Part shown: positions 4,852 through 24,898 of the stretch, one piece after another
Layout: every line of letters begins with the position of its first letter
Position numbering within the stretch: the stretch's first letter is position 1
Assembly (NCBI RefSeq): GCF_036588685.1
Contig: NC_086379.1
Coordinates: forward strand, 7,192,001-7,256,000
From: Mytilus trossulus
Taxonomy: Eukaryota
Direction of reading: 5' to 3'
DNA: 64,000 bases
The notes under the pieces: model-generated
Seen by the model: only the letters and a program-made list of their open reading frames with translations
What the model was told of the DNA's origin: nothing
Database searches by the model: none
Translations under genes and position numbers: made by a program

Positions 4852-7800
4852 TTATGCTGCATCATTGTTAATACCTGCAAAGATAAAAAAACATTACAAA
4901 TGAGCGTATTGGTTAAAGGCCCGTTTATCAGTGGAATACGTCACGAAACTTTCAAATTGGGTTCTTTTACGGGCAAGTTAAAATAAATACTATACCGATA
5001 AAGACGGCATTTAATCAAATTTGATTTTAACACGCTCAGCTACAAACACAATATAGAAGAAATAGACACAACTAGTGTTAAACATGGAAGCATATAATCA
5101 AGACTATACTTTTTACAAAACATCGTTTTTTCGCGAAATATTGAAATGGAATCTATCTATACAATTCTATATAGTAATACAACGACACACTATTGGAAAA
5201 AACTAGTACATTACATAATAGTTTTGGCCAAAACACGAAAAGGAATAATGTTATCAAAACATATGTTGAAATATCCAATTGTTTCATGTGAAATTGATTT
5301 TCACCTACTGCGGCATTTATGATGTATTTGTGACATCTTGAATTTGAGTGAATTATGGTTTTTGAAACAATAACTGTATTTTATTTTTCTGTTAAATAGA
5401 AAAAAGAATGGAATCGGATAATGCGTCGAGGAAACAACAACCTAAACGAAAAGCAGAAATTTTACAAGGCTACTAATGGATCTTTAATGCAGCGAGGTAA
5501 TCGCAAAGCCGGAGGATAGGCGCAAAAATGCAGCGGGGTTATACATGTTTTGTGTGATGACAATAAGGGAGACTATATCTAGATTATTGGAAAAATCCTC
5601 CCACCACCTTATATGATACCTTCTAAATCTTTGCTATTATTTATAGATATAAAACCCATATATATGATACATAACTAGTTCATATATATATAGTTACCCT
5701 TTGATCTGTCCTTTGTTTTCAACGCTATATAATCGTCTGACAAAACTGGTTGGTCCAACATTGTCTCTTGAAGTTCACGACTTAAATTTGACATATGAGT
5801 TTCATGCTGTTTGGATCGTTGCAGCGCCATATCAGAAGCGTCTTGCATTTCTCTTTTCATATTTTCAACAAATGCGTTAAATTCCGCAGAAAGAGATTCA
5901 TATAAATTCATGTCTTCCGCTGCATCAAACATTTGATCTGTTAATGCGTCTATTATATTTGCATTTGAGGCTGCCTTTTCAGTAGAAGCTTGTTGAAAAA
6001 GCTCTAACTCGTTTTTATATTGTTCCTGTGCCAAATCAATCGCAGTATATATCGACTCCATCTTTTTCTTTTTATGATGTTCCTGATTTTGAATGTACTG
6101 TTCTAAAATATAAAGATGTGTAGTAAGTTAAAGACATAACAAAATAAGTAATTAAGAACGTTTAAAGACAATCTCCGATTTTTCGGAAATAAATTGAAAA
6201 TAACGTAAAATTTAATTCTATTGAACGTTTAATAAAATGTAACTAAGTTATTTCTACCTAAGTATCATACCTGTCAGACAACAGACGTAACTATAGTAAT
6301 TTTGTTAAACGTTTGCACCCGGTTGACGGAAAAGTATTACCTTAAAACTTGAGATACTGACCTTGAAATATGGCTTGCTGATATAAATATATTTAATAAA
6401 TTACCGTCACGTAAGTTTCAATAAATATCGATGTGATTGGTCCACTCAGAACAACATAACAACACACCTTTACCTTAGAATCGTCAAAACAGTACTCTTC
6501 ATATTTTAAAAGTTAGCAAAAGATTTAAATGATAATTTAATATATTTAGAGTTGTCGCTCTTCCTACTGAATATCAGTTTATACTATAGTAAATGATAAA
6601 GACTAATATAAAACATTAAGACAGGGTATAATTGCCTATGAGACAAATCTCTTCAAGAGACCAAATGACACAAAAAATAACAAATATACGGTCTTCAACA
6701 ATGAGCAAAACATATACCACATAGTGAGTTATTAAGGTGTAATACCACTTAATCCTAAAATAGGTCGAAATAAAATATTTCCTTGAATTAGACATTTTTA
6801 GGTAATTAAATCTCCATTGGATTGCAGTAAAATATTTTTGGGTCATAAACATATATCTTTGGTATTTCAAAGCACCATTATTTTTTGAGGGTTCTAAAGA
6901 ATATTTTGGAATTTGGAGGTTACATGGTTACTAAATCTTGCACACAGGTTAAACAGGTGTGATTAGTTAACTTCTCTAATGATGGTTATTTTCTTACATG
7001 CAATTACATGTTATGTGAAAAATGCATTGAAAGAAATTGTTGAATAACTAGAAAGCATATTAAAAGAACAAAGGCAGCTTTTAAACTTGTTGATAGTCTG
7101 TTTTCAGTATCAATTTTGTAATATTAAGTTTGTTTACAAAGTCAAATGATGTTTATTATTCAAGAAAAATACAGTTGACAGTGACCTACCGAATAATGAA
7201 TCACAATTCATTTTCCTAACAGCTTAGATATCAACTACTAATTTTACCTTTTTCTTCCTGTTTTAAATTGTCCACTTCTAACGTTCCTATCTTGTCCTGA
7301 TGTATGTCTGTTCTTTCGTTCAATGTTCTAATATTTTCATTTGAAGTGTCTGTAATTTCTTTTAGTGTTCCTATCTGTTCTGTATGTACTGTCGTATGTT
7401 CTTCTATCTCCACTATTTGATCCCTGTGTTGATTCGTCTGTTCTACCAAAGTATCGATCTTTCCCTGGTGTTGGTCTGTGAGTTCTTCTAATGTTCCGAT
7501 CATATTTTGATGTTCATCTGTTGTGTCTTCTAAGTTTTCTATCTTTATTTCATGCACATCAACTGAAACTTCTAAATTTTCTATTTTGACTTCATGGTCG
7601 TCAGTTTTAGCATATAAATTCTCAGTCTCGTAACCACTTTTTTCAGTGGCATCTTCTAGTAATTTGATTCTCAAGGTTTGTGAACTGGTACTCTGTTCTA
7701 AAGTCTTAATGTTCTGCTCGTGTTGTTCTGTAACTTTTGCCAATGTCTCTGTCCCACGTTTGAATTTGCTTGCTGTATTCTTTATGTCGTCGTCAAGTGA

Positions 7801-9049
7801 CTGAATACTCATTTTATGTTCGTTCAGTGTAATTTTTAAATCTTGTTCTAAGAAAAGAAAACTAATCGTATTATTTAAATAACGAAAATTAACTTGCAGG
7901 TTGTCGTCATATATTTCCAATGAGTGTTTAATAATTTAAGGGGGAATTGTATCTCAAAATGTACTGCAAACTATAAACAAAATCTTGATAAAGTCATCAC
8001 AAAGCCAAAAGTGAATTAAATTTTACAACAACAAACGGAAGTTTTTAACGACGTTGATTTGCTATACAACACATTGCAAGGTCGATAAATTTTACAAAAA
8101 TGTCGTATTTTATTTTATTTCCCCATAAAAAGCTGATGTATGCATGAACTTAAAATCCAAATGTATTTCAGACTTACCATGACATTCACGTAAAACGAAC
8201 TTATTCATATAATATTTTTTTTTCTAATCTCACTCAATTTTAAGCTTTCACTTTAAAAAAAAAATTAATTGATGTGGCACAAATATTAAGACGATTTAAG
8301 TAGGAATGAAAAGAACGTTTCAGTCACATTTAATTTATTTATTTATTCAATGAAGCATGATCAATGTAAAAAGAGTCGTGGCATCATACAAAGTAAAAAT
8401 TAGGCGTACCTTGTTTTGCGATCATCTGAACTGTATTTTGTACCAGGGAAATTTGTTCTTTAAATGTATTTTCCTCTTTCCTAAGTATTTCAAGATTTTC
8501 CAAATACATCTTTTCTGTTTCTATGTCCATGCAACATGATTCTAAATGCTCAAATGTCGACACAAACTCATTCTTTGCTGTTCCTAGGTATATTTCTAGC
8601 CTTCCGGATATGGATTTGAAGATTGTAAAATAATCCGTTAATTCCTGGTCTGTTACCAATGTATTGCCCCGGTGAAGAACTTCATTACGTTTCCTTCGAA
8701 CACGCTCAATATCGTCGCCAACAGTTAGCTCCAATGGTGTCGGGTCTGCTGGGAAATCCCACCCTTGAGTTGGAGGAGGAACCAAATTTAGATTTCGAAT
8801 TAACTTGTAGCATAATGATATATCTAGATTACTGTAGCCATTTGACTGTACACCAGTAATCTGTTTCCATTCATGTGCTCTTAAATTCCGTGATAAAAAT
8901 TTGTTTGTGCTAACATGACTATGCAACAAGTGAGGTGGCTCTTTAATGGTAAGTAGCTTCTGAAGAACGCTTGGTAGTTCACTTTGTGCTGCACACCCAA
9001 GACGAGCATAATTGGTAAATGACGATGTAGCTGTAGATGCACTAGCCAT
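4852..9049 (-). CDS. DZIP3-type HEPN domain + long coiled-coil protein (~555 aa; coding exons 9049-8410, 7847-7248, 6102-5698, 4874-4852; probable non-coding first exon ending at 11881)
   Basis: Three ORF-track ORFs join through canonical GT-AG junctions, all phase 1, total 1668 nt. The N-terminus (NYARL..., LDISLCYKLIRNL, PPTQGW, GDDIERVRRKRNEVLH) resembles the HEPN_DZIP3 family. The last micro-exon is less certain. Confidence 0.8.
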
Positions 9050-9391
9050 CTCTAAAGTCGTAGTGCTACAGTTGAAATTTACTTAATCTGTCAAAAAAGC
9101 ATAGTACAGTTTGAGAAATCTTATTAACATATTTGTTTATTTATATTCAGAACAACCATAAGTTTGATAAAGAAATAATTGAATAAGTTATATATTTAGT
9201 AATTAAATCAAAGTACAACAACCGCACACACTAAATGTATGAATATCATTCAACAGGAATTTTTAGGTTATACTTTATTTTACTACGTGTTTTTGTAATG
9301 ATGAATATGTTGTTTTGTGCAAAAAAAAACCCACTAAAAACGTTCATATGAAATAACTGACAATATGGTAGTCACTGGAAAGCATGACCAG

Positions 9392-10495: not shown

Positions 10496-12027
10496 AATAA
10501 AGAAATACGGCGAAAACTACGGCAGATTGTAAAATAGATTGAATACAAAACTCGAATGATGTCGTTAGATATGAAATAGTCAAAAACATTCTTCGGTTTT
10601 CAAAGTGTATTCAGACCTGAAATAATACACAATGTATGGTTAACTGATGTAATTTACTGCAACATAAGAGTGTTACATATTTAGAGTTAGAGATGAGGAC
10701 GTTTTCTATCTTTTTGATATAACATAAATTAAAGTATAGCACACTACACGGGAAACATATTATTGAGAAAGCTCAGGTGTTTAACATTTTACTTTTGTTT
10801 TCATTTATTGTCTAAAAGAAATGCACTAACAAACAACCGTGTTCTCAGATCATATCTATACATCTTATTGATTTGTTTTGATTCATATTCAAAAGAAGCA
10901 TACATCAATGTATGATCCGTTCATCCTATTTCGACTCTTTAAAATTCAAGAGTTTGTTTTGAATTGAGATAAATTAAAATGTATATGGCCTTCAAAATAC
11001 CATTTCGATCCCTTACATCAGTGAAGAGACATTAGTTATCAAAATCCGGATATGGTGTACAAATCTTTGCACCATGTTTGCGGTATACCATCTTCTCCGC
11101 AAATTGAAATTAAAATCGTCAAGCTATCTGTATTAAAAGCTTAATTTTATATTTTACAGTTTACAAGTTAACAAATTAAAAATATTCCGGTAAAAGCTAC
11201 TTCACTATATCCTTCCTTGTAAACTGCTATTGTACATCTGATAACTGAAAAGTGATTACCAGTGTCATATTTGCAACCAATAAGAAAACTATGAATACTT
11301 TTTCATAACATGCCAATACTTTCAAAATTTGTAGTCAAATTAATACTTGACAAAATAAAAATTGGGACACATATTATCACTTTCAAAAATCTAATACTTT
11401 TGATATAAAACATATGATAAAAACTACTATGACATCAATCTGTTTCTGAGTGTATTAATGTTCTTCTATTCATAAACCTACATATGCATCAGAGTATAAA
11501 CAAAAAAAAAATGTTGATGTCTACAGAATTTTTAAGTTAGAATTTCAACAATACTACGATAATATGAACGTTCTTGATAAAGAAATCTAGTAGGTTTTTA
11601 AGTGATGTTTATATAATTACCATGTCTACATTATAAATGTATTTATATTTAATATCATTACACATATCATGTAGAATGACTCATAGGAAATGTTAACAAG
11701 TTTCATGTGTGTGGTTACAAAAGATCAATGTTTACCTGTACAAAAGTCAGCGTGCTTACAGAACATTGACCCTGTACTATCTTATGTCAGACTAGAAATT
11801 CTTTGATATTTTAGAATAAATCATGATGCTTTCTAAAAACTTATCATAAATAAAACAATTGAAATATTTCCCAAACTCACCAGTAGAGACACCTAAATTA
11901 GATAAGACTGAACCTTCTGCTCATCATCAATACACGTGACATTCATTAATCATATCCGATCATCTCAACTTTCACGTGAACTTGTACTGATCAAGGTAAA
12001 TAGGTCAACGATTACACAGGTAAAATA

Positions 12028-12172
12028 GCTACGGATGTTTTACGTCCGTAAACAATCCATAATACGTCCGTTGCTTTTCATCCGTAAAACGTCTGTTAAA
12101 CGTCCGTAATACGGACGTTTAGTACCACGACCATAATACGGATGTTTTGTACCACGGACGTATAACGTCTAT
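12028..12172. repeat. Cluster of ACGTCCGT/ACGGACGT motifs in both orientations
   Basis: About eight variants within 145 bp. Confidence 0.7.
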
Positions 12173-12198
12173 TATTATTATGCATTATAATATATTAT

Positions 12199-12340
12199 GG
12201 TATTATTGCGTAACAATTTTCATATTGGCTTAGTTATAGGTCCGAGGGTACCATATTGGCCTGAGGCGAAGCCGAATGCCAATATGGCTGCCCGAGGACC
12301 TATAACTAAGCCAATATGAAAATTGTTACGCAATGATACC
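12199..12340. repeat. Long terminal palindrome (~62-bp arms) with central GGCGAAGCC mini-hairpin
   Basis: Arms 12199-12260 and 12278-12340 are near-perfect reverse complements. Confidence 0.95.
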
Positions 12341-12562
12341 TTTATTAATTAACCAGTCCAATATGAACTCTAGCCGGGCCAATATGAAGATTGAAAAAAG
12401 TGTGAAAATCTGACATTCAGGACTTCAATAGTAGTGATTTGAATATGTATCAATGAAAATTGAGGATTTTAATCAAAACAATAAAATAGTAACAATTTTA
12501 TTAAATAATCAACAGTAAATAAACACAACAAGTAAAAAACATGTTTTTATCTAGTTTTCAGA

Positions 12563-15024
12563 TTAAAGCTCTTGGCTGCAGTTTATAGTATTCTTTCTTT
12601 CCCCTGAGTATATGTTAATATTGAAAACACCACCTGTTATAGTTGCACCTGCAAACATGGCCATTGGGTTGTCATGTTTGTTAGCAGTTTGATTATTTGT
12701 ATTTGATACATTTGCATTTAAATTATTATGAACTAATGTATTTGAGTTTGAAAGTTCACAAGGTTCCTCTGAATCTGATGTCGTCTGTAAATCTGAGTTC
12801 GGCAACATGACCTTAGATATTGTGTGAGAAGCTTGTTGCTGTTGTTCAATAGACGGTACTGAATAATGAGTTAAGGTACTAATGCCTTTCCAGCCTCCTA
12901 ATTGAGCAACTTCATTGGCAGGTCTACCATTTTGAAGTAGTGTGGTAGCAAAAGTTTTACGTCCCGAATGATTAACCTTTCTTCCTTGAAGATCTCCTTT
13001 TTCTGCCATATTTTTTACCATTTTACCTAATTTATCTTTGCCTATGGTTTTGCGAGTGTACCATATTTCCTCATGTTTATTATCTAAAGGCCTCAAATAA
13101 AATCTATGTTCATCAGTTAATGTGTCTTGAGGTCTATGCCGTTTGTATTCCTTGTAAACATGAATAGGGCAATTACTTCCTCCTTCCCCGAAAATCTTTG
13201 GCGTAATATCCCGGAAATCCCTGCTTTTTGCTCCACTACGGGTTTTGGTGCTTCTTTCTGAAAAAAGTATGCTTATGTCAATATTTAAAGAAGAATTATC
13301 CTTCCTGTCTGTACAAAACTTTCACTTTTATATAACAAAAAACATGTATTGCATAGTAAATAAGATTTGTTTTGATAAATATAAAACAATGGTTAATATC
13401 CTTAAAAGCACAAATTACCAACTTTTGTCAGGACTGTTGTACATGTACATCCATTATCCACAGAAGTATATATTCTGTGATTTCTAAAAGATTAAAAATA
13501 GCAACTATTTAAATGATGGAAATCATAACATAATCTCACCATTAAATTCCAAATACTCCTTTCCATCAGATGTAGCTTTTAACTTGACATCTCCCCATGT
13601 CATGTTAACATGGTCTTGTCGACCTCGTAGACCAAAGTATGTTGCATTATTTAAAAACACAGCATTCAGTAATGCATCAGGGTTTTCTGGAAAAAGAAAA
13701 AAAAAGAACTTAACTAAAATACATGTATCTTAATGTAAATATCCAACTTAAAATAGTATTTAAAGGACAAATACTGTATCAAAATGCAAAAGACCTCTGG
13801 AGACACTCTCATTGTTCAAGACCTTATGTGTATTTTAAACATTTTCTATTAGAACAACCATTTAATAATCAGGGATGGATAGAGGGCGACAAGGAAATAA
13901 AATAATTTGTTTGCCACAAGGTTAGAAAAATGTTTAATTAAAAGTTACTGACTGACACGCTGGAATACAACATTTTTTTAAACTTACGTGTTCCAATAAT
14001 TCCTTTCTCCCTCAAGATTTGGATTTCCTCAGTCGTCAAAGGTTCAGCTCTGTTTGGCTTACTGCCCTTGCCCAATGACTTTAATGCCTTTCGCTTCGCT
14101 TCTAATACCCGTCTTGTGTGGTTGAACTCAGGATCCTTTTTAATACTGAAACATTAAAGAAAAGATATGCATAATATCTGACATGTAATTTTTGTATGTA
14201 CATGTTTTATACTTATAGCAAAGAGAAACCAAGGAATATTCATTGTACACAAGCTTAAGATCATCAAAACCACATTGACCCAGATGATATATATAGTTTT
14301 TACCAAAAAAAATGACACAAGGCTAAAATTAAAATATTGGCACTGAATATTCGAGTCATAATGCTTGACAGAATAATGCAAAGGCTATCATGCTATATCA
14401 AGACAAGGGAGTTACATGTCTCACAGATATCAAATAATCTACATGAAAATAATCGTACCTTATACTACTTTTTGAGTCCTTCAAATGTCTATCCAAGCTG
14501 TTGAACATAGAGGATAAAGAGTCAGGCTCATATTCGTCACCATTTTTCTTCAGGACTCCAAGAAAAAATCTTGATAACAGACTGTCCAAGTCTTTGGCAG
14601 GTATTTCCACTGAATCACGCATTTCTCCAACAGATATGAAAAAATCCAGCATCACTTTCAAGTCACTCTTTGTTTTAGTTTTTGTGTTCTTGTTAACACT
14701 TAAAGCTAGAAAAGAGTCAGTGTCTTCATCAGTGACAGAGCGAAACCTCTTGCTACTCGAGCTATTTTCTTTGTCTGATTCGTCAATCTCATGATTCTGT
14801 GCATTTTCAATGTCCTGCAGAATTTCATTTGGGAAGTTGAAATTCGCTGAATCAACTTCTTCCAGAATCAAATTTCCTTCCCCATTGACATCCGCAAGAT
14901 TTCTCTTGATGTACTCTGCCTCCCTATTAGATAAATCGTCGTAGTGAAAATAGTCTTCAACTAACGCATCCATCGCATCATCTATATTTTGTATAGAGCT
15001 ATTGCTCCATCGTTTTGTTGTCAT
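12563..15024 (-). CDS. Crypton-type (DUF3504/ZMYM-QRICH1-like) tyrosine recombinase, 521 aa; exons 15024-14459, 14145-13988, 13686-13540, 13257-12563
   Basis: GT-AG splicing gives a 1566-nt open frame. Motifs: YEPDSL, LEAKRKALKSLGKG..AEPLT, FGLRG (R), STKTR (K), CPI..Y, FYLRP, NHSGR (HxxR), GGW, THY (Y). Confidence 0.9.
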
Positions 15025-15418
15025 TTTCTCCTGTCAGACGACACTAGCCGTAGTTCTCTAGAGTTATCGGGATTTCAACCGATTAGTCTAGAGCTAATCG
15101 AATATGCTAATATTGGGCTTGCTACACCCGGGCCAATACGGAAAAATCCGTATTGGCCTTATAGGACAAAATTATCGATTTGGCAGTTTTACTCGTATTT
15201 AGTCAAATAAGCTCCAGTTAATTAATAATATATATTACAGTATCTAATACACTTATTGTAGAATATATAACACACTTATTATAGTATATAGTATAGTTTG
15301 ATTTGTATGTAACAGTTGCATTGTATTGCTGAGACTTTTGATGGAACTGTCAATGACAAAATGCTTTTCTTTATTTTAAGGTGATGATACTTTTTATCTA
15401 CATTTCCTTATATAGTAT

Positions 15419-17048
15419 TGTAAGCCACCCGAGAGCATCCTGTCCTATACTCGGTAGTTTACTTTAATAACACGTAAATACAATATGTGACTCCTGTAGC
15501 AACTCTACATTTGTATTAAACTTCCTAAATTACTTGTCAGGTATGGTCTTCAGGTTGTTTAATATGTATGTATTGAGCGATCCCTTGTATTCGAGTGTTA
15601 CTGAGCTAATTTTTGTTCCTAACGGCTTTCCATAGTTTTTATGTTTGAACGAGCGTCTTCCAGCATCTTTTGTTTTCATCAGTGTAAATTCATGTTCTTT
15701 TTATATGTATCATAGTTCAATTAAACAAAGTTATCTTTCCAATGTTAACAGTTTTTATTTGCTCACTGTTAAAAGTATGTAACATTATAACATCGTAAAA
15801 CAATATAAATAAACAGTTGCGTTCAAGTGTACTGAATCATAAATCCTTATAAATACATATTTGTGGTGTCCGACGTGGTGGGAGATAGCTTACTGTACAA
15901 AAGACGGCTAATTACATATCATTAAACTTCATTATGTTATCCTTATTCTCACCTAAAGGTTATTGTTACTTTATTTGTTTTCCAAGGTTTGAACTTGCCG
16001 CCAGCAAAACTTTGGGCTATCTGCCATTGCTGAGTGCTCGCGCGTTTATATACTAAATTGTAATTGTCACGTGACATACTAATCCAATGGAAACTTGTCC
16101 TTTCCGGGAAGCCGGAACTATAAAAATTTCAGATAATGAAAAACATGATATACATATCATCTTAAATTGTCCGAACATTGTCCTTATACATAAAATATCA
16201 AAACAAAGCTATAGCATCTGAAATATCGACAAAGAAGCTTGAAATAAACAATCGGACACCACTGCGCGCGCATTGATTTAGCAGACGATCTGCGTAATTA
16301 CATAATACGTAAATAACATACAACATAGTTCATTTCAACCATCTAAATATTTACAATATATTTGTGTCCGGCAGGGTATACTTATTAAAAATCTTATGTG
16401 TGGTATTAAAAATACAATATAAGATCAAATGTTCAGGGGACGAATTGGTATTTAAAGATATCAAAACACATGTTTCGGTCCCCACAAAAATGGCAGACGA
16501 CAAAGTCTCCGTAAATAAACAATTGCAGTTGAAGTAATTTTCTATGTATATCAGGCATATTAGACGTTTAAATATGAATATTTGGTTACAAGAAATGATC
16601 CTTAAATCTGGAATTACATGATATAAAGCATGTAGAAGGTAAGCCATGAGTAATTACATACATTCCCTGCCGTAACACTTGTACAACAAAATGTAAACAA
16701 ATGAAAAATTCATTTCACTTCCAGTGTTTTACGCATTAAAAATGTGTTATCCTTGATAATTGTCAACATCATCTTGAACCTATATACAAACATGAACTAG
16801 AAATTCATATCATAGCTGATGAAATGCTTCCCCCCTTTATATTTGGTAAACAAAAAAATGAAACTTTGGCCTGTGAAATCCATACATAAAAATAGTAAAT
16901 TAATGCCATATCTTTGATTAAAAAAATGTTTTACTTGTTCGTGCGAGCCAAGTTACTATGCGTAAGAACACAACCATCATGTTTAAAAGAATAATATTTC
17001 CTTTTTCTGAATTTATAATATCATAACAAGTACTTCCAATGCCTTACA
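15419..17048 (-). repeat. 3' LTR (1630 bp)
   Basis: Direct repeat of 24920-26549, preceded on the minus strand by the PPT. Confidence 0.97.
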
Positions 17049-17143: not shown

Positions 17144-17656
17144 TCATTGGTCTTCACCAAGTCTAAGTTGTACACCCACGGCATCATTTTTGTTCAAGAT
17201 AATGTCTGTTGATGTGTCTCTCTTTGATGATGACGCTTCAATCATATCAAGCAATTGTAAGGTGGTGGGATCGTCTGTTTTACTCTTAATGATATTGGCA
17301 ATTGCTTGGTACAGATAGTATCTAGACTTAACTGTCATTGTATTGCCCTCTGTTGATTGTGGGGTTTTCGTGCCTGGAAGTGCCAAAAAGTGATACTTTA
17401 ATAGAAGCTCCTCCTTTGAAAATTGAAGCTGTTTCCCGGTGTTTAACTCCAATGCAATGCTAGCATACTCCCAATTGAAATATCTTTGTTCAGGGGTCAT
17501 GTTTTTCCAGTTTTTCGGGGGCCATTTCACTTCAGCTGGTATGGTAATCAAAGTTACGATTTCTTCTTTTTCCCATTCCCTCCTCCCAGCTGGGAAAAGT
17601 GGCATCCCACCTCTCCTTAAAAGTTTGTCTGCTCTTTCACTGGCAGTGTAAAACTG
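17144..17656 (-). CDS. In-frame continuation of ORF3 beyond a single TAA (globular C-terminal domain, GGMPLFPAGRREW..WPPKNWK)
   Basis: Same frame as ORF3; 17 open codons lie between the TAA and the ATG at 17605. Confidence 0.65.
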   Translation of the reverse strand, partial: QFYTASERADKLLRRGGMPLFPAGRREWEKEEIVTLITIPAEVKWPPKNWKNMTPEQRYFNWEYASIALELNTGKQLQFSKEELLLKYHFLALPGTKTPQSTEGNTMTVKSRYYLYQAIANIIKSKTDDPTTLQLLDMIEASSSKRDTSTDIILNKNDAVGVQLRLGEDQ

Positions 17657-19345
17657 TTAACTTTGCAGGTTCTCTCCTTCCTGTAGTCTCATTAGTTCTG
17701 CTTCATTTGACCTGGTTTCTTCTGCTAATCTCTTGGTTTCTGCCTCCTCCTGTCTCCTTAGTTCTTCCTCTTTCATTCTAATTTCCTCATCCTGTTTGTG
17801 TTTTTCCCTTCTCTTTTGTTCTGCCTCCTTTAGTCTGACTTCCTCCTCCTGTTTCTGTTTTTCCTGCTTCTTACGTTCTTCCTCCTTCTGTCTGATCTCC
17901 TCCTGTTCCTGTTTTTCCTTTCTCTTTTGTTCTGCTTCCTTTAGTCTGACTTCCTCCTCCTGTTTCCGTGTTTCCTGCTCCTTATGTTCTTCCTCCTTCC
18001 GTTTAATCTCCTCCTGTTCCTGTTTTTCCTTTCTCTTTTGTTCTGCTTCCTTTAATCTGACTTCCTCCTCCTGTTTCCGTGTTTCCTGCTTCTTATGTTC
18101 TTCCTCCTTCCGTTTGATCTCCTCCTGTTCCTGTTTTTCCTTTCTCTTTTGTTCTGCTTCCTTTAGTCTGACTTCCTCCTCCTGTTTCTGTGTTTCCCGC
18201 TTCTTATGTTCTTCCTCTTTCCGTTTGATCTCCTCCTGTTCCTGTTTTTCCGTTCTCTTTTGTCCTTCCTCTGTTAATGGCATTTCCTCATCCTGTTTCT
18301 TGTAATCCTTTCCTTTCTTTATTTTCTTTGCCTTCTGTTCCTGGTGGTTAGTCTTTTTCTTTCTTTTCTCTACATATCTCTCTTCTTCTTTCTCGGTCGT
18401 CTTTCTACCCTTCTTCTGGCTTGTTGGTTCCTCTAAAATCTCGGGTTCTTCATTGTCGCTGTCGTCTTCTAAAATGATATCCGATGTTGATGGTGTTTTC
18501 AGTGGTGATAGTTGATTTGTGGCGGCTTTTGTCTGTTTTCCTGGGAATAATTCGCCTGATGTTTTTATATCCGTTATATACTCCTCCTTTATTGATAATT
18601 TCCTAGCCACTACAGGAGTCACTATAGACTTTAGTTTACCGTCTATCGATACAGAGAAGGTATGTGATCCTGCGTACTTTGTGTTAACTAGTGCTGTCAT
18701 CCTTCTAATCAGAGCGTCAAGCATTTTTTGGTCTCTAAGAACGGAGTCATTCAAATGGATCATATAAAATCTTATGGACACTCCAAGGTCCAATTTAAAA
18801 ATGGCTGTAGAGTCCCCAAGTCCCAAAGTTAGTTGCTGGAGGGCCAGCCCTTCATAAATAGTGGGGCGTGTTGGTGAGTAAGATCCATTGGGTTTCTCCG
18901 ACTCAACCTCTTCTTCTTGTGTACCTTTTACCATCTCCTTCGGACACTTCCACCCTACAGTCCATTCCTCTTTCTTTCTGTTGGTGTTGTCCACCCTGTT
19001 TAAAAATTCAAGAACCTCAATCCTGGCTTTCATTGCTTCTTGTGAATTCTCATTTGATGGTAGGATTACCTTAGCATATGTCTCTGGATAGTTTGCCATC
19101 CAAAACCCATTGTTTTCGCTCAGGAAGCTATAAGGCATCAGTTCTATTTTACTGCGGTGGTGAGCCATGACATGCTCCTTAAGGTCAACCATCCTCCTGT
19201 AGGACTTCTCCTCAGGACACCAAACACAAATGACCGAAAGCCTTTTGTGTGGGGCAGCTGCCAGATGATTTTTCAGTTGTCTCCTTGTCCTAAACGTCAT
19301 GGGACACAGCCAACACTTTGCCTCAATTTGGGATGATGGTCTCAT
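17657..19345 (-). CDS. Retrotransposon ORF3: two C2H2-type zinc fingers + K/E/Q-rich 40-aa repeat coiled coil
   Basis: 562-aa ORF between pol and the 3' LTR; CWLC..H..H and CVWC..H..HH; about four 120-bp tandem repeats at ~17770-18260. Confidence 0.85.
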   Translation of the reverse strand: MRPSSQIEAKCWLCPMTFRTRRQLKNHLAAAPHKRLSVICVWCPEEKSYRRMVDLKEHVMAHHRSKIELMPYSFLSENNGFWMANYPETYAKVILPSNENSQEAMKARIEVLEFLNRVDNTNRKKEEWTVGWKCPKEMVKGTQEEEVESEKPNGSYSPTRPTIYEGLALQQLTLGLGDSTAIFKLDLGVSIRFYMIHLNDSVLRDQKMLDALIRRMTALVNTKYAGSHTFSVSIDGKLKSIVTPVVARKLSIKEEYITDIKTSGELFPGKQTKAATNQLSPLKTPSTSDIILEDDSDNEEPEILEEPTSQKKGRKTTEKEEERYVEKRKKKTNHQEQKAKKIKKGKDYKKQDEEMPLTEEGQKRTEKQEQEEIKRKEEEHKKRETQKQEEEVRLKEAEQKRKEKQEQEEIKRKEEEHKKQETRKQEEEVRLKEAEQKRKEKQEQEEIKRKEEEHKEQETRKQEEEVRLKEAEQKRKEKQEQEEIRQKEEERKKQEKQKQEEEVRLKEAEQKRREKHKQDEEIRMKEEELRRQEEAETKRLAEETRSNEAELMRLQEGENLQS

Positions 19346-19894
19346 TCTGAAATTGAATCATCAATTATAAATCCCTCCACCATACAACATATATTAATAC
19401 AATACATAATATCATGTAGTGTCCTGTAGTGTGACTATATTTGTTTGTGTGTTTAAAATCCTCCCCCCATATGGCATATGCTGGTAGTAAATGGATCAAG
19501 CTAAGTTTCAGTCTAAAAATATGATATCCACCCCCTTGGTCTCCCTATTTCAAAAATCTCAAGCCTCCTCAAGACAGTAAGTTGTCGTTAATTGCTTTCC
19601 GCCGCGCAACTTGCGCATAAAAAAAACGCTTGGCAGTAGTTTAATCTGCCATTCCCCTGGCAGGAAGATTCATCCTTCCCTTACAGCCAATAATATGTCC
19701 TGAGAAACAATGGCCATTTGTCTCCCTTACATATTCTTCCAGAGTGGATCCAACTCTAGGAATTCCATCATGACTTTCTCCAGTCTGAGAAAAGTCAAAC
19801 AGTTACTCTTAAACATAGTAACTCATCAAAACAATTAAAAACGTAACAACTTGTACAACTAATTTCGGCTATTCAAACAACGTTAAAGGGCATC

Positions 19895-22800
19895 TCAAAC
19901 CTTCCTACTGGAGAACCAAGTGGGCGGATTCCGTCCTTGATAGGGCAGTAGTCTATCAATGTGGTAGACCTTCCCTGGCTGTTTCTTTGACCTTCTCACA
20001 AGGTAAGTGATGTCGTCAATTTTCCTTGTAACAACATATGGTCCTTTCCATTTTGATGTCAACTTATGACAAATTCCCTTTTTCTTCGATGCATCATAAA
20101 GCCATACAGCTTGACCTACTTGTAATTCGCGCTTTACTGCTTTCAAGTCATAGTGACGTTTTTGATACTCAGAATTCTGCTTAAGATGTTTCCTAGCAAG
20201 TACATGTGACTTTGACATTGCGTCCTGTAATTCATTTACATATTTATCTGTTTCAGGGGAAGTGGATTCGTTTGGTCCATCAGGGCGTGGAATAACAGCT
20301 TCCATAGGAAGAAATATGTTTCTGCCAAACATCATCATGTTAGGGGTCTGTCCTGTACTGGCGTGAACTGATGATCTGTATGCCATCATAACCTGTGGCA
20401 AAATCTCATCCCAGTTTCTCTGATCATTTTGACAATAAAATGTTAGCATGCTTAGGAGTGTTCTGTTAAATCTTTCTACGCTTCCGTTGGACTGGGGGTG
20501 TTGACTTGTACTTCTAGTTTTGTCAATTTTAAGTAGATCACACAGATCTTGAAACAGCTTTGCTTCGAAAGACCTTCCTTGATCAGAGTGGAGCTGTAAT
20601 GGTGAACCAAACCTACAAATAAATTCATTCACGATGGTACGGGCAATGGTCAGGGATTCCTGGTCCGGAATAGCATATGCTTCAGTCCATTTAGAAAAGC
20701 AGTCGCAAAGGACCAGAACATAGCGGTTTTGTCGTTTTGTTAACGGAAGTGGACCAAGAATATCAATCGCCACACGTTCCATAGGCTCGCCAACCAAGTA
20801 TTGACCCAATGGAGCCTTGTTCCGCTTCAGTGATTTCCTAGCAGCACACTGGTCACATTCCTTGCAGTACCTTGTGATGGAGCTTTTCATAGCTGGCCAG
20901 TAAAAGAGTTTCTGGATCCTACTTAGCATTTTATCTGGTCCTAAATGACCTGCAGATGGAACGTCATGAAAATACTTGAAGACTGTCTTTTGGTGTGATT
21001 TTGGTACCAGGAGCTGCAATTTGAAGTTGTCTACATCGTCTTTATCAGAACAATAAAATTTTCTATAAAGCATGCCATTGTTTATTGTTAGCCTATCCCA
21101 TTGTCGCCATATTGTCTTCTGGAATGATGTTCCTTTTGATACTTGGTCCCAGTCAGGTTTATTTTTCTTTTCTTGAAGATATGTCACAATGAGTGACATG
21201 TCTAGGTCTTCCAATTGGCTTTGTCTGATACTATCTGGGTCCCATCCATCAATGCAGTAACCACTTGTAGCACTATACTGATTTCCTGTCTGACTTCTTG
21301 TACATACTCGTACTATTTCTATTCTTGGTGTTGGTTCTTCATTTTCGTGTAACTCCTGGTTAACAAAATCAGTTTCTTCCAGTTGGATTTCGTCTGTTTC
21401 ATCGTCGCTTGCGTGGTTTCCAGATTCTTGTCTCTCGCATGATTTACAAGGTCTTCTGGACAGAGCATCGGCATTTGAGTGTTTCCTTCCAGCTCTGTGT
21501 GTTACTGTCAAATTGTAAGTTCCCAGTTCTTCGAGCCATCTGGCTGTTTGACCAGTGGGTTTCTTTAGATTTTTCATCCATGATACAGCTGCGTTATCTG
21601 TGCGCAGCAAAACTTCCTGGCCATATAGATAATGATGAAATGTCTTTAGTGCTATAATTACAGCAAGTAGCTCTTTTCGGGTTACACAGTATGCCTGTTC
21701 ATGTATGTTCATAGATTTGCTCATGTATGCTATGACTCGTTCAAGACCATCTTGAATTTGTGACAACACTGCTCCGACAGCCTTATCACTTGCATCTGTG
21801 TCAAGTATGAATGGCAAATTTGGCAGTGGGTAGGCAAGTACAGGTGTACTTGTTAAAGCGCTTTTCAACTGTTGAAATGCCTTTTGACACTCATCATTCC
21901 AAGCAAAACGGCTATTCTTTTCACAAATTTTGTGCATTGGTCTTGCAATTGCTGCAAATCCCTTAACAAATCGCCTATAGTAAGAGCAAAGTCCTAAAAA
22001 GCTGCGCACCTGTTTTGCAGATTTAGGGACAGGCCAGTCATCTATTGCTTTTGTTTTCTCTAGATCAGTGGAAATTCCCTCCTCGGACACGATATGCCCA
22101 AGGAACCTAACTTGTTTTTGAAAGAAAATGCATTTGGCAGGTTTCAATTTCAGATGTGCGTTTTGTAGACGTATACAGATTCTTTCCAGCCTCCCAAGAC
22201 CCTCTTCAAATGTCGAACTTATTGATATGATGTCGTCCATGTAGAGTAATAGTTCTTTCCACTGTAGCCCTCTGAGAACATTTTCCATCAGACGCTCAAA
22301 AGTAGATGGTGAATTTGCAAGTCCAAAGGGCATGACAGTGAACTGGTATAACCCTAAACTTGTCAGAAATGCGGTCTTTTCCTTGTCTTCAGGAGCCATG
22401 CCGATTTGCCAAAATCCTGAATTTAAGTCCATTGATCCGAAGAATTTTCCCCCAGCGAGCGAGTCGAGGCACTCGTCTACTCTCGGAATCGGGTAGGAAT
22501 CTTTTTTCGTGACGTCATTCAAAATTCTGTAATCAACACAGCACCTAGGGCTGCCATTTTTCTTCATTACAAGGACTATATTTGATGCCCAAGGACTAGA
22601 AGATGGTTCGATGATTCCTTTGTCCAACATCCGATTGACTTCTGATTTTTCCATCTCTTGCTTTCCAAGTGGCATACGTCTAGATCTCTGCCTAAAGGGT
22701 ACTGCATTTCCTGTATTTATTCTATGTGTTACAAGGTCTGTCCTCCCTATGTCATCATCTGTCCTTGAAAATACATTTTGGTACTGTGAAAGGGGTCTGG

Positions 22801-23704
22801 AGAGTTGTTGTCTTTGGTCCTCATTTATATAAGTTGAACTCCTTTTTAATAAGTCAGTAAGATGTTCTGGTATTTCTTCACTAGCTGTAAAGCAATCTTT
22901 CTGTAGTGTTCTAATCTGCTCTGGTTTCAAATCATGCTCAGTATATGATTCACATGTTCCTATTGTTTCCTTTTTATACAGTTTAACTTCGTCGTCACCA
23001 TAGTTGACAACATTAACAAAGTGTACTTGGTCTTGTGTATTTATAATCCCAGGTATGGTTAATGTAGACTTGGCTGTTCCTGTCGTGCCCTCTATTAATC
23101 CGTATTCTGTTAAATGATTGACTCCCGGTATTTCTACAGGCATCATAGTACTCGTCATTGGAGGAATTGTCATGTTGTCCTTAATTTCTACTTTGCAAAT
23201 CATATTTGCCTTCCCTCCAATCCAACATTGTATTTCCTGGTTGTGGATCGTGTGTAAGACCATGCGCTGATAATTTACTTTACTAACTTCCTTTAGTAAG
23301 AAATCCTGTCCAAGTATTCCATCCTGATTGATATTGCATATCATAAAATTTTGACTGAAAATTTCTTGACCAAGCATTAGTTCTAAAATGATCGATCCAA
23401 TGGCAAAAACCTTATTGCCATTAACGTCAAATATTTCGGATTTGTTTGGTACTAAAGAACACCAAACATTTGAAGGCAATTTTTCGTAAACATCAATAGA
23501 TAATATTGACGCAGTTGAGCCACTGTCAATTAAAAAGTTGACAGGAAACCCAAAAATTAATCCATTTGTATAAAACCCGTTATCCCAATTATCATCTGTT
23601 TCCCCTATATGTCCTGTCCGGACATGTTTTTCTCCCTTCATATCAGGCCTTTTATCTTCTGTCACTAGCTCACGACCTATTGAGCCAGCGTTCTGTCGTT
23701 TCCC
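19895..23704 (-). CDS. pol: Pol polyprotein (protease, RT, RNase H, integrase), reached by -1 frameshift
   Basis: LIDSGS protease, YMDD RT, DTDAS RNase H, HHCC + DDE integrase and a GPY motif, with no stops. Confidence 0.97.
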   Translation of the reverse strand, partial: GKRQNAGSIGRELVTEDKRPDMKGEKHVRTGHIGETDDNWDNGFYTNGLIFGFPVNFLIDSGSTASILSIDVYEKLPSNVWCSLVPNKSEIFDVNGNKVFAIGSIILELMLGQEIFSQNFMICNINQDGILGQDFLLKEVSKVNYQRMVLHTIHNQEIQCWIGGKANMICKVEIKDNMTIPPMTSTMMPVEIPGVNHLTEYGLIEGTTGTAKSTLTIPGIINTQDQVHFVNVVNYGDDEVKLYKKETIGTCESYTEHDLKPEQIRTLQKDCFTASEEIPEHLTDLLKRSSTYINEDQRQQLSRPLSQYQNVFSRTDDDIGRTDLVTHRINTGNAVPFRQRSRRMPLGKQEMEKSEVNRMLDKGIIEPSSSPWASNIVLVMKKNGSPRCCVDYRILNDVTKKDSYPIPRVDECLDSLAGGKFFGSMDLNSGFWQIGMAPEDKEKTAFLTSLGLYQFTVMPFGLANSPSTFERLMENVLRGLQWKELLLYMDDIISISSTFEEGLGRLERICIRLQNAHLKLKPAKCIFFQKQVRFLGHIVSEEGISTDLEKTKAIDDWPVPKSAKQVRSFLGLCSYYRRFVKGFAAIARPMHKICEKNSRFAWNDECQKAFQQLKSALTSTPVLAYPLPNLPFILDTDASDKAVGAVLSQIQDGLERVIAYMSKSMNIHEQAYCVTRKELLAVIIALKTFHHYLYGQEVLLRTDNAAVSWMKNLKKPTGQTARWLEELGTYNLTVTHRAGRKHSNADALSRRPCKSCERQESGNHASDDETDEIQLEETDFVNQELHENEEPTPRIEIVRVCTRSQTGNQYSATSGYCIDGWDPDSIRQSQLEDLDMSLIVTYLQEKKNKPDWDQVSKGTSFQKTIWRQWDRLTINNGMLYRKFYCSDKDDVDNFKLQLLVPKSHQKTVFKYFHDVPSAGHLGPDKMLSRIQKLFYWPAMKSSITRYCKECDQCAARKSLKRNKAPLGQYLVGEPMERVAIDILGPLPLTKRQNRYVLVLCDCFSKWTEAYAIPDQESLTIARTIVNEFICRFGSPLQLHSDQGRSFEAKLFQDLCDLLKIDKTRSTSQHPQSNGSVERFNRTLLSMLTFYCQNDQRNWDEILPQVMMAYRSSVHASTGQTPNMMMFGRNIFLPMEAVIPRPDGPNESTSPETDKYVNELQDAMSKSHVLARKHLKQNSEYQKRHYDLKAVKRELQVGQAVWLYDASKKKGICHKLTSKWKGPYVVTRKIDDITYLVRRSKKQPGKVYHIDRLLPYQGRNPPTWFSSRKV
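23664..23704 (-). promoter_or_regulatory. -1 ribosomal frameshift signal (G GGA AAC + downstream stem-loop)
   Basis: The slippery heptamer at 23704-23698 is in gag phase. Its -1 frame is continuous with pol. A stem CTGGCTCA/TGAGCTAG starts 9 nt downstream. Confidence 0.85.
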
Positions 23705-24741
23705 TGGATGTGATTAAAAGAGGTATTTTGTCTTTGGTTGCCCTGGAAATTCCCTCTAGCTCTTTGGTTGTTTTTGTGTGGACAGTTCCTCATAAAATGG
23801 TCTGGGGAGTTACATCCGTAGCATCTGCCAGTATTTGCCCTCTTTGATTCCCGACTTCCATGTCCTTGTTCCAGCTTTGCTATCCTATCTTGTAATTCCT
23901 GCAAATTGCTATGGTAATCCTTTTCACTCATGTGTCCTTCGATGTCCTTTGATTCCACAGCTCTGATCATTGTTGACTTCTTTTTGTCTTGATCCCCCAA
24001 AATTGACTCATACCTCTCTATTACATCAACAGCGTCTGCTATTGTGTGGCATTCCTTGTCAATACAACGACATTTCATTTCCACAGTTATTACCTTGAAT
24101 AACTGGTTTAGTGCAAGAGACTCCTGCGCTGCTAGGTCCAGGTCATAGTACGCCTTTTGCGCTAGTTGCCTGATATCATCCCCCACCTCAGCTATGCTTT
24201 CCCCTGCCATGCGCCTGCGCATCTCTAACTTTGAGAGCCAACGATTTTTGTGTTTTGAACTCCCAAACCTCTGATCTAACTTTTGTGTTAGCATTTGGTA
24301 TGTGCGCCTGTCGCCAGCAGACAAGCTCATGTAGTATGTCCTTGCTTGGCCCCTTAAGCTAGCTGCCAAAAACAACAGTTTTGTACGGTTTCCCCATTGT
24401 CCCAATTCAGCGCAGTCCTCAAAATGCGACAAGTATTCCTCCCAACAATCCTTACCAGAGAAGGGCTCAGGTTTAAGTGTTACCTTTGGTGGGCCAATTG
24501 GTTGCATATTATGATTACCCCTACCATTCCTATCGTCAAAATCATGTCTCTGATATTCATCCCGTCCTTTATGTCTCTGATCTACTTCATCACCATGACC
24601 TTGTAAAATTGATTCCCTATCAAAGTCGTCATTGTCATCAGTGTGTATTTGATCCCCTTGTCCTAAGTCATCTAAATCTAAATCCCTTTCCCTACGGAAA
24701 TTTATTTCAGGGTCTGGGGAGTTCCTACCAGTATCAGCCAT
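23677..24741 (-). CDS. gag: Gag (capsid + CCHC nucleocapsid)
   Basis: 354 aa; KPEPFSG..WEEYLSHFE capsid-type motif; CYGCNSPDHFMRNC zinc knuckle. Confidence 0.95.
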   Translation of the reverse strand: MADTGRNSPDPEINFRRERDLDLDDLGQGDQIHTDDNDDFDRESILQGHGDEVDQRHKGRDEYQRHDFDDRNGRGNHNMQPIGPPKVTLKPEPFSGKDCWEEYLSHFEDCAELGQWGNRTKLLFLAASLRGQARTYYMSLSAGDRRTYQMLTQKLDQRFGSSKHKNRWLSKLEMRRRMAGESIAEVGDDIRQLAQKAYYDLDLAAQESLALNQLFKVITVEMKCRCIDKECHTIADAVDVIERYESILGDQDKKKSTMIRAVESKDIEGHMSEKDYHSNLQELQDRIAKLEQGHGSRESKRANTGRCYGCNSPDHFMRNCPHKNNQRARGNFQGNQRQNTSFNHIQGNDRTLAQ

Positions 24742-24898
24742 ATTCTAAATAAAGACTTTTTATTTTATTTGTTGTTTCATATTCTATAGTTATAATAAAT
24801 TTTTGTACAGTAAATCCACCACGTCGGGCTTAAACCACGTTTTTAAGTTGACAGGTTATTCCAAGGTTCGTATCCTGGATGCTAATTAGAATTTTAGC

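What the first reader, a model, noticed from the sequence alone, without database searches (positions are those of the whole stretch)
12563..15024. Catalytically complete, intron-containing Crypton recombinase with Trp at the second His position
Seen: manual splicing restores R (GLRG), K (TKT), HxxR (NHSGR), W (GGW) and Y (THY) with no lesions. Known: most tyrosine recombinases have His at this site (GH) while Cre and Flp have Trp, and domesticated DUF3504 proteins have typically lost catalytic residues. Inference: a potentially active animal site-specific recombinase. Its three introns imply DNA-level mobility.
Basis: partly seen in the sequence, partly recalled or inferred. Interest (0 to 1): 0.7.

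Follow-up and report, generated by a model that had tools for sequence, protein, structure and literature searches.

The report
Young mussel Crypton with Cre-like recombinase
This is one of at least 14 near-identical full-length copies of a recently spread jumping gene in a mussel genome; its spliced gene keeps every catalytic residue of a Cre-type DNA recombinase, and its ends suggest it likely inserts as a folded single DNA strand, which would make it a ready test case for a transposon group whose mechanism is unproven.

Summary
Observation confirmed. The minus-strand gene (521 aa, three GT-AG introns) keeps R262, K295, H387, R390, W413 and Y422. RNA contigs show all three junctions, though with sister-copy alleles, and an NCBI protein is identical to the model. 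It lies in a 3,033-bp CryptonA transposon (12196-15228) with at least 14 near-full copies about 0.4% from their majority. Six of the 14 have an intact ORF, and empty sites show insertion without duplication. It is not domesticated.

Intact animal Crypton recombinases are known and common (100 of 127 scorable relatives). Trp is real but minor: 8 of 132 relatives, marking a bivalve clade. It comes with the Gly/Ala packing partners described for Cre and Flp.

The ends are the more useful finding: a 3' hairpin with strand-biased G·A mismatches, and an internal exact complement of the far terminus that covaries across families. Targets show symmetric arms around a 6-bp spacer, and the element's spacer always stays on one side. 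This fits single-strand, integron/CTXphi-like integration, which is inferred, not shown. This scan already noted such folded ends on other DNA, including this genome.

The parts
12196..15228 (.). Whole autonomous CryptonA element, 3,033 bp, no terminal inverted repeats, no target duplication
   Evidence: Ends from flank divergence among 16 copies; empty paralogous sites; element contigs of 4 of 4 DNA runs stop at 15228-15230
14459..15024 (-). Exon 1 (codons 1-189; acidic N-terminus and start of the DNA-binding domain, QRICH1-like)
13988..14145 (-). Exon 2
   Evidence: RNA junctions
13540..13686 (-). Exon 3, with R262 (13627-13625) and D266 (likely the Glu/Asp-I equivalent, one residue later than in Cre)
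12563..13257 (-). Exon 4, with K295, H387, R390, G411, W413 (12892-12890), Y422 (12865-12863), low-confidence tail and stop
12196..12201 (+). Element's 6-bp spacer TATGGT; strand exchange maps to its left edge
   Evidence: Kept at the left end in 16 of 16 copies, at the start of 0 of 16 right flanks
12199..12340 (+). Terminal hairpin 3' of the gene; tandem G·A mismatches at +49/50 and +68/69 and a GCGAAGC apex on the + strand
   Evidence: z = -16.6 against 60 shuffles on copy L003; mismatch list
12342..12353 (+). Internal 12-bp exact reverse complement of the far terminus; extends the hairpin only when the two ends are joined (DIRS ICR-like)
15217..15228 (+). Right terminus, 12 bp complementary to 12342-12353
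15131..15158 (.). Small perfect inverted repeat upstream of the gene carrying the GCCAATA motif; 7 of 8 such motifs lie in the two end regions; possible binding or promoter site
12497..12502 (-). Candidate AATAAA poly(A) signal; an RNA contig stops at 12485, short of the hairpin (weak hint only)
12012..12195 (.). Left part of the ~490-bp host repeat split by the insertion
15229..15418 (.). Right part of the host repeat

Best explanation
It is an autonomous, recently amplified CryptonA DNA transposon of a Mytilus mussel whose spliced gene encodes a tyrosine recombinase with a complete R-K-H-R-W-Y set, and it likely moves by a single-strand, integron/CTXphi-like route. Shown: ends, copy number, introns kept in all copies, insertion with no duplication, spliced transcripts of the family, a Cre-like predicted fold. 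Inferred, step by step: (1) the recombinase exchanges one strand (window + strand) between the two element junctions, giving a single-stranded circle and leaving the other strand as template, so copy number can rise; (2) the circle's junction pairs with the internal complement at 12342-12353 and with the hairpin arm, forming a double-stranded site whose spacer is bulged (7 nt opposite 5 nt); (3) this site recombines with an AT-rich target, ATAW-N6-WTA, by one strand exchange at the left edge of the 6-bp spacer; (4) replication or repair resolves the junction. Trp413 with Gly411 and Ala394 is likely a second way of packing under the catalytic tyrosine helix, convergent with Cre and Flp, not a new chemistry. 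Identity as a young CryptonA: about 0.95. The single-strand route: about 0.55.
For: Mobility: 14 near-full copies on 10 contigs, plus 2 internally deleted and 2 non-autonomous 851-bp copies (40 of 54 candidates scored). Copies are 0.24-0.56% from the majority, with a near-star tree, 6 of 14 ORFs intact, and pN/pS 0.92, P=0.77 against neutral. No duplication: 8 of 10 paralogous host repeats give a same-length join for the window site, 4 of 4 for copy L006. Fold: Cre Z 20.4, rmsd 4.7 over 303 residues; XerA 16.7; QRICH1 16.6; IntI4 15.1 (model of P0047, 3 residues from the window protein). Internal complement: own-family match 12, 13, 14, 8, 13, 13 and 9 bp in 7 element types, against at most 7 bp in 421 internal control windows; own family is best in 6 of 7 rows. 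Hairpin mismatches on the + strand: G·A 30 against C·T 3, G·T 10 against C·A 2 in 7 hairpins, with a purine mismatch at +48-50 in 7 of 7. Target symmetry in 13 flanks: -4 A 11, -3 T 12, -2 A 12, +8 T 12, +9 A 11, each P<=2.3e-4 among 26 positions. Held-out families: -2 A 7 of 9, +8 T 8 of 10, +9 A 7 of 10. One-sided inheritance of the spacer, 16 of 16. Trp partners: Gly at -2 in 5 of 8 Trp rows and 0 of 118 His rows; Ala at Arg-II+4 in 7 of 8 Trp rows, while 115 of 118 His rows have V/I/C/M/L there, as PMC2943603 describes for the two solutions.
Against: No circle, single-stranded intermediate or enzyme activity was observed. No circle-junction joint was among the 15 joints shown for 4 DNA runs, with 1 more hidden. 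No perfect head-to-tail dimer of this family exists in the assembly: the junction pattern hit only 2 known flanks. No two dispersed copies are identical, so transposition today is not shown. The families are related and their mismatches sit at homologous positions, so the mismatch counts are not independent. One row of the complement matrix matched another family better (11 against 9). The held-out families differ at -4 (T 9 of 9) and -3 (T 4 of 9). One-sided spacer inheritance could also come from biased repair after a two-strand exchange. Joining the ends adds only about 6 kcal/mol, and ordinary flanks add 0-3. Position Arg-I+3 is Gln, not Glu/Asp; the acidic residue is at +4 (E or D in 135 of 163 rows), and its equivalence to Cre Glu176 is inferred.
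Confidence: 0.55

Rival explanations
1. Same transposon, but it moves by the canonical route proposed by Goodwin et al.: two-strand excision as a double-stranded circle and two-strand integration. The hairpin and the internal copy of the terminus would be accessory protein-binding or regulatory sites.
For: This is the standing model (PMC3212892). Clean excisions were seen for CryptonF-1_cRei (PMC9977147). The fold is Cre-like, and targets have symmetric arms around 6 bp. An inverted copy of a binding site would also covary with the terminus.
Against: A double-stranded model gives no reason for G·A over C·T mismatches on one strand (30 against 3), for the internal copy lying in exact register to extend the hairpin across the junction, or for 16 of 16 one-sided spacers with no homology at +4 to +6. 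The algal Crypton also rose in copy number.
Confidence: 0.28
2. DIRS-like splint: the internal complement only holds the two ends of a linear single strand together so that they can be sealed into a circle. The circle is then made double-stranded and integrated canonically.
For: DIRS-1 has an internal region complementary to both joined ends, and it is essential for transposition (PMC7192593). The layout here is the same.
Against: A splint should pair perfectly across the junction, but all 7 element types are bulged or mismatched exactly there. It does not explain the one-sided spacer.
Confidence: 0.12
3. The family is an extinct burst: it moved as DNA recently, but no copy is competent now, and the transcripts are residual.
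For: 8 of 14 copies have broken ORFs, evolution since insertion is neutral, and no dispersed copies are identical. This is compatible with either mechanism above.
Against: 6 of 14 ORFs are intact, correctly spliced RNA is found in three studies, and 521-aa members with the full catalytic set are named from three Mytilus species.
Confidence: 0.35
4. A domesticated ZMYM2/KIAA1958-like host gene, as the NCBI name suggests.
For: Database names; DUF3504 and QRICH1 domains; introns.
Against: At least 14 dispersed copies with unrelated flanks, precise empty sites, pN/pS 0.92, catalytic Tyr kept, no zinc-finger domain.
Confidence: 0.01

Closest known systems
CryptonA DNA transposons of animals (Kojima and Jurka 2011, PMC3212892; e.g. 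CryptonA-1_OL; also reported from the mollusc Lottia)
   Same: Single YR/DUF3504 gene with intact R-H-R-Y, no C-terminal GCR1_C domain, no TIRs, non-autonomous derivatives.
   Different: That paper found no terminal repeats in animal Cryptons, and 'hairpin', 'palindrom' and 'tryptophan' do not occur in its text. Here the ends, a 3' hairpin, an internal complement of the far end, the target geometry and a Trp clade are defined.
Cre (and Flp) recombinase
   Same: Best structural match to Cre (Z 20.4); Trp at His/Trp-III with Gly two residues before; Arg-II to Trp 23 residues and Trp to Tyr 9 residues, as in Cre (Flp 22 and 13; numbering from PMC2943603 Table 1).
   Different: 11-13% identity; a transposase with a loose AT-rich target and no loxP-like pair at its ends. 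The Trp arose within a His-bearing family, so it is convergent. Flp was not among the rows shown.
Integron attC x attI and CTXphi attP x dif recombination (PMC2727003, PMC4792948, PMC3442271)
   Same: Folded single strand with an unpaired spacer, strand-distinguishing irregularities and one strand exchange. All of this is inferred here.
   Different: A eukaryotic transposon that encodes its own enzyme; the site forms only after end-joining; an I2 insertion was not tested; no experiment.
DIRS-1 internal complementary region (PMC7192593)
   Same: Internal sequence complementary to the two joined ends; YR integration.
   Different: No reverse transcriptase; introns kept in all copies; pairing is bulged at the junction.
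CryptonF-1_cRei (PMC9977147), described there as the first Cryptons seen active
   Same: Precise insertion at a short motif; multicopy.
   Different: Different Crypton group and host; targets CAYCG.

Membership tests
CryptonA | Single gene encoding only a YR/DUF3504 domain, no GCR1_C | tested here: met
   Pfam DUF3504 79 bits, Phage_integrase 32.2, QRICH1 28.3 (below cut-off), nothing else
CryptonA | Intact R-H-R-Y tetrad | tested here: met
CryptonA | No terminal inverted repeats and no target site duplication | tested here: met
CryptonA | Dispersed multicopy family with non-autonomous derivatives | tested here: met
CryptonA | Tree placement with named Repbase CryptonA elements | not testable with these tools
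   No Repbase sequences on hand; the label rests on DUF3504, animal host and structure
CryptonF/CryptonS | Exact 4-6 bp direct repeats at both ends | tested here: inconclusive
   Only a degenerate ATAW-T overlap; copies L004, L006 and L015 mismatch on both sides of the cut
CryptonV | Insertion into microsatellites (some families, PMC8869645) | tested here: not met
   16 flanks are AT-rich but not microsatellites
Domesticated DUF3504 genes (KCTD1, KIAA1958, ZMYM, QRICH1) | Loss of catalytic Tyr and second Arg; conserved single locus | tested here: not met
Trp-type YRs (Cre, Flp) | Trp at His/Trp-III with Gly two residues before | tested here: met
   W413 and G411
Trp-type YRs (Cre, Flp) | Acts on two identical sites with 13-bp inverted arms | tested here: not met
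   No such pair at the element ends; targets share only 3-4 bp arms
Trp-type YRs (Cre, Flp) | Active-site geometry and catalysis | not testable with these tools
   The model gives no coordinates to measure; no assay
Integron/CTXphi single-strand recombination | Folded single-strand site with unpaired spacer and strand-distinguishing features | tested here: inconclusive
   Predicted and covarying in 7 element types; folding in the cell not shown
Integron/CTXphi single-strand recombination | One strand exchange resolved by replication | not testable with these tools
   Indirect only: 16 of 16 one-sided spacers
Integron integrases | I2 insertion | not tested
   No residue-level superposition on IntI4 was available
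DIRS retrotransposons | Reverse transcriptase/RNase H and an RNA intermediate | tested here: not met
   No RT in the element; introns in 14 of 14 copies

The most novel reading that the evidence does not exclude
Animal CryptonA elements are eukaryotic counterparts of integron cassettes and CTXphi: their recombinase cuts out one strand, whose joined ends fold into the recombination site, and integrates it by a single strand exchange. This 3-kb mussel family, with an intact Cre-like enzyme, mapped ends, a 6-bp-spacer target and natural 851-bp mini-elements, is a directly testable model and a possible scar-free single-stranded-DNA insertion tool.
Probability: 0.45. Interest if true: 0.8.

Novelty: new variant of a known kind. 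Interest (0 to 1): 0.5.

Why it matters
The Crypton mechanism is still a proposal by analogy (PMC3212892), and I found no animal Crypton tested experimentally (searches). Cryptons gave rise to six human genes. This family supplies what a test needs: enzyme, ends, target rule and mini-elements. If the folded-strand model holds, single-strand tyrosine recombination, so far described for integrons and CTXphi (PMC4792948), also operates in animals. The His-to-Trp switch with its Gly/Ala partners is a clean natural repeat of the Cre/Flp packing solution. Practically, many mussel 'ZMYM2-like' or 'KIAA1958-like' annotations are transposons.

Tried and rejected
Enumerating splice combinations by open frame was uninformative.

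The joint 12196 to 15231 in 1 of 4 DNA runs looked like an empty allele, but its extra G matches paralogous host repeats L061 and L062. It is not counted as polymorphism at this locus.

Empty-site searches failed for two copies: L004 has a unique flank, and for L010 the hits did not span the site.

The C27 tandem is not a circle-junction dimer. Its joint is built from two short internal pieces and a flipped hairpin arm. An exact end-to-end junction was not found for this family.

Family F (L086, L087) was dropped from the end analysis because its hairpin could not be tied to its ends. The single copy L073 had no defined far end, so only its hairpin was used.

Rfam gave 0 hits over 11800-15600. 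A sequence look-up among earlier scan findings gave none. Flp was not among the fold-search rows shown, which is no evidence. RNA contigs show no cover over the hairpin, but contigs cannot show transcript ends.

The idea that Trp is unique to this gene was rejected. The idea that Trp is general in animal Cryptons was rejected too (118 His against 8 Trp). No complex prediction was run.

Full report
Observation. The gene reads on the minus strand in four exons (15024-14459, 14145-13988, 13686-13540, 13257-12563), giving 521 aa with GT-AG introns of 313, 301 and 282 bp. Open frame alone does not fix the junctions, but RNA contigs do: 3 of 4, 2 of 4 and 3 of 4 runs laid show the three junctions exactly; the raw-read run had 39 reads on the stretch and no junction. 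An NCBI protein, P0050, equals the model at all 521 residues. The catalytic set is R262, K295, H387, R390, W413, Y422. The window copy has two private amino-acid changes, V238I and Q360K. All four RNA runs carry the family allele at 13051, so they show expression of the family, not of this copy. Near-identical proteins are named from Mytilus trossulus, M. edulis and M. galloprovincialis, so the host is taken to be a Mytilus mussel.

The element. A DNA search of the own genome gave 14 near-full copies at 99-100% on 10 contigs, two internally deleted copies, and two 851-bp copies that share only the ends; 40 of 54 candidates were scored, so these are lower bounds. Flanks diverge at 12196 and 15228, and element contigs in 4 of 4 DNA runs stop at 15228-15230. 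Copies lie 0.24-0.56% from their majority, and 140 of 149 variable sites are singletons. Six of 14 have an intact ORF, coding changes are neutral (16 synonymous, 53 missense, 4 stop; pN/pS 0.92), and all 14 keep the three introns. The window copy split a ~490-bp repeat. Eight of 10 paralogues of that repeat give a same-length join and 2 are rearranged; for copy L006, 4 of 4 paralogues join without duplication. So insertion is precise and leaves no duplication. The joint seen in one DNA run matches a paralogue and does not show polymorphism at this locus. Domestication is excluded.

The protein. Pfam finds DUF3504 and Phage_integrase above cut-off and QRICH1 below it. The AlphaFold model of P0047 (3 residues from the window protein; mean pLDDT 73.5, core 100-440 mostly above 80) matches QRICH1 and Cre best by Foldseek, and Cre at Z 20.4 by VIA-align, ahead of XerA 16.7 and IntI4 15.1. 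A profile search found 2,829 clusters at E<=1e-30. Among the best 150 (163 aligned rows), 127 cover all six sites and 100 are complete; at His/Trp-III, 118 have His, 8 Trp and 6 other residues. In a 27-row tree (near-duplicates and proteins under 280 aa left out), the Trp proteins form one side of a branch at 100/100; the named members are bivalves. A faster 129-row tree shows two further small Trp groups. The own genome holds both kinds: Trp in families A, A2, B and B2, His in C, D and E. Gibb et al. (PMC2943603; passages and section 22 read) give His 92% and Trp 4% across YRs. They state that Trp enzymes have Gly two residues before, while His enzymes with a small residue there have a large hydrophobic residue four after Arg-II. 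Cryptons follow both rules: Gly at -2 in 5 of 8 Trp rows and 0 of 118 His rows; V/I/C/M/L at Arg-II+4 in 115 of 118 His rows, and Ala in 7 of 8 Trp rows. This supports the residue assignment and makes Trp413 a convergent packing solution. One point against a textbook site: Arg-I+3 is Gln, and the retrieved passage says Cre E176Q 'showed no measurable' and is cut off there. However, an acidic residue is conserved one place later (135 of 163 rows), which I infer is the equivalent.

The ends. The end 3' of the gene is a hairpin (12199-12340; z -16.6). Just inside it, 12342-12353 is the exact reverse complement of the far terminus, 15217-15228, so joining the ends extends the stem across the junction with a small bulge. 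Six of the other multi-copy or nested element types examined are built the same way with different sequences. The own-family match is 12, 13, 14, 8, 13, 13 and 9 bp, against at most 7 bp in 421 control windows; one row matched another family better, and one further family was dropped. Hairpin mismatches on this strand are G·A 30 against C·T 3 and G·T 10 against C·A 2, with a purine mismatch at +48-50 in 7 of 7; the families are related, so these counts are not independent. That tandem G·A pairs and GNA loops are stable in single-stranded DNA is recalled, not from a call. Target flanks (13 of 16 held; dropped: one internal joint, one truncated end, one repeated host) show arms ATA and TA placed symmetrically around 6 bp. 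Held-out families repeat -2, +8 and +9 but not -3 or -4. The element's spacer stays at its left end in 16 of 16 copies and starts 0 of 16 right flanks. L013 sits exactly at the head-to-tail junction of another Crypton-type unit, and a family-B copy sits in the hairpin arm of a sister.

Mechanism. Shown: DNA-level spread, precise insertion, cut position, end architecture. Inferred: one-strand excision to a circle, folding of the junction into a site with an unpaired spacer, a single strand exchange with the target, and resolution by replication. This is how integron cassettes (PMC2727003 and PMC4792948, passages) and CTXphi (PMC3442271, listing and start of abstract) recombine. It would reconcile the clean excisions with the rising copy number reported for CryptonF-1_cRei (PMC9977147, passages). 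The internal complement also recalls the DIRS-1 ICR (PMC7192593 and PMC6681497, passages). I saw the hairpin and the internal complement; the integron reading was prompted by earlier notes of this scan, which are leads and not support. No intermediate was seen. I put the single-strand route at 0.55, the canonical double-stranded circle at 0.28 and the splint at 0.12.

Known and new. Intact animal CryptonA elements, non-autonomous derivatives and a mollusc example are in PMC3212892 (parts 1-3 of 7 and passages read; its Figure 4A alignment and supplements were not seen and may show His/Trp states or termini). Intron-bearing, intact DUF3504 elements are described in fungi (PMC13465315, passages). 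Polymorphic Crypton-A insertions are reported in an oyster (10.64898/2026.02.10.705023, passages; supplements closed). Also seen as passages: PMC5753468, PMC4381057 and PMC8869645. Searches listed no paper on a Trp clade, on hairpin or internal-complement ends of Cryptons, or on an assay of an animal Crypton. Repbase Reports and most subscription journals are outside the library.

Verdict. The finding is real, a new variant of a known kind. The value lies in a young, fully mapped family that makes the Crypton mechanism testable. Interest 0.5; novel case probability 0.45, interest 0.8 if true.

Noticed in passing
window 17144-24744 (-): Gypsy-type LTR retrotransposon: gag-like ORF 23677-24744 and a 1,272-aa pol frame 19895-23713 (protease, RT, RNase H, integrase). 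Downstream on the same strand lie a 566-aa frame (C2H2 finger, long Lys/Glu-rich repeats) and a 170-aa frame with no Pfam match; these may be extra ORFs of the element.
   Followed up: no
window 8384-9082 (-): 232-aa frame with a HEPN_DZIP3 domain (E 3.7e-13); coiled-coil-like frames at 7231-7935 and 5675-6127 may be further exons.
   Followed up: no
window 41197-42141 (-): 314-aa frame matching HtrL_YibB (E 1.4e-13), a family described as bacterial.
   Followed up: no
window 12012-12195 and 15229-15418: Young ~490-bp repeat with 27-bp internal repeats that received the insertion; its target site is a near-perfect AT palindrome; one inverted pair on C34.
   Followed up: partly
L023 (G000:C27:2142955-2148988) and L014: Two copies begin at the hairpin apex with the inner right arm replaced by the complement of the left arm; the C27 joint holds two ~20-bp pieces copied from inside the gene. 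L009 and L015 have one G·A mismatch corrected to perfect pairing, and L013 has a deletion across the hairpin. All suggest the hairpin forms in vivo or promotes template switching.
   Followed up: partly
L068 (G000:C11:16414500-16424400): Trp-type family B (99.5% identical copies, 3.75 kb): one copy inserted into the hairpin arm of another, plus a duplicated hairpin.
   Followed up: partly
L013, L009, L073: A short non-autonomous unit sharing its hairpin end with the Trp-type element L073 was hit twice by this family, once exactly at its head-to-tail junction, which hints at cross-family target use.
   Followed up: partly
L017, L018: 851-bp non-autonomous copies, 99.9% identical, with both ends of this family around ~510 bp of unrelated sequence.
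   Followed up: partly
whole element, other runs and species: Element contigs from DNA runs under other organism labels differ from the window at about 10 of 2,926 bases, the same as the window's distance to its own family majority; one identical 521-aa protein is named from two Mytilus species. Introgression or horizontal spread is possible.
   Followed up: no
L019, L020, L024, L025: A ~90% identical copy of the hairpin end sits inside a larger repeat on C8, C12 and C5.
   Followed up: no
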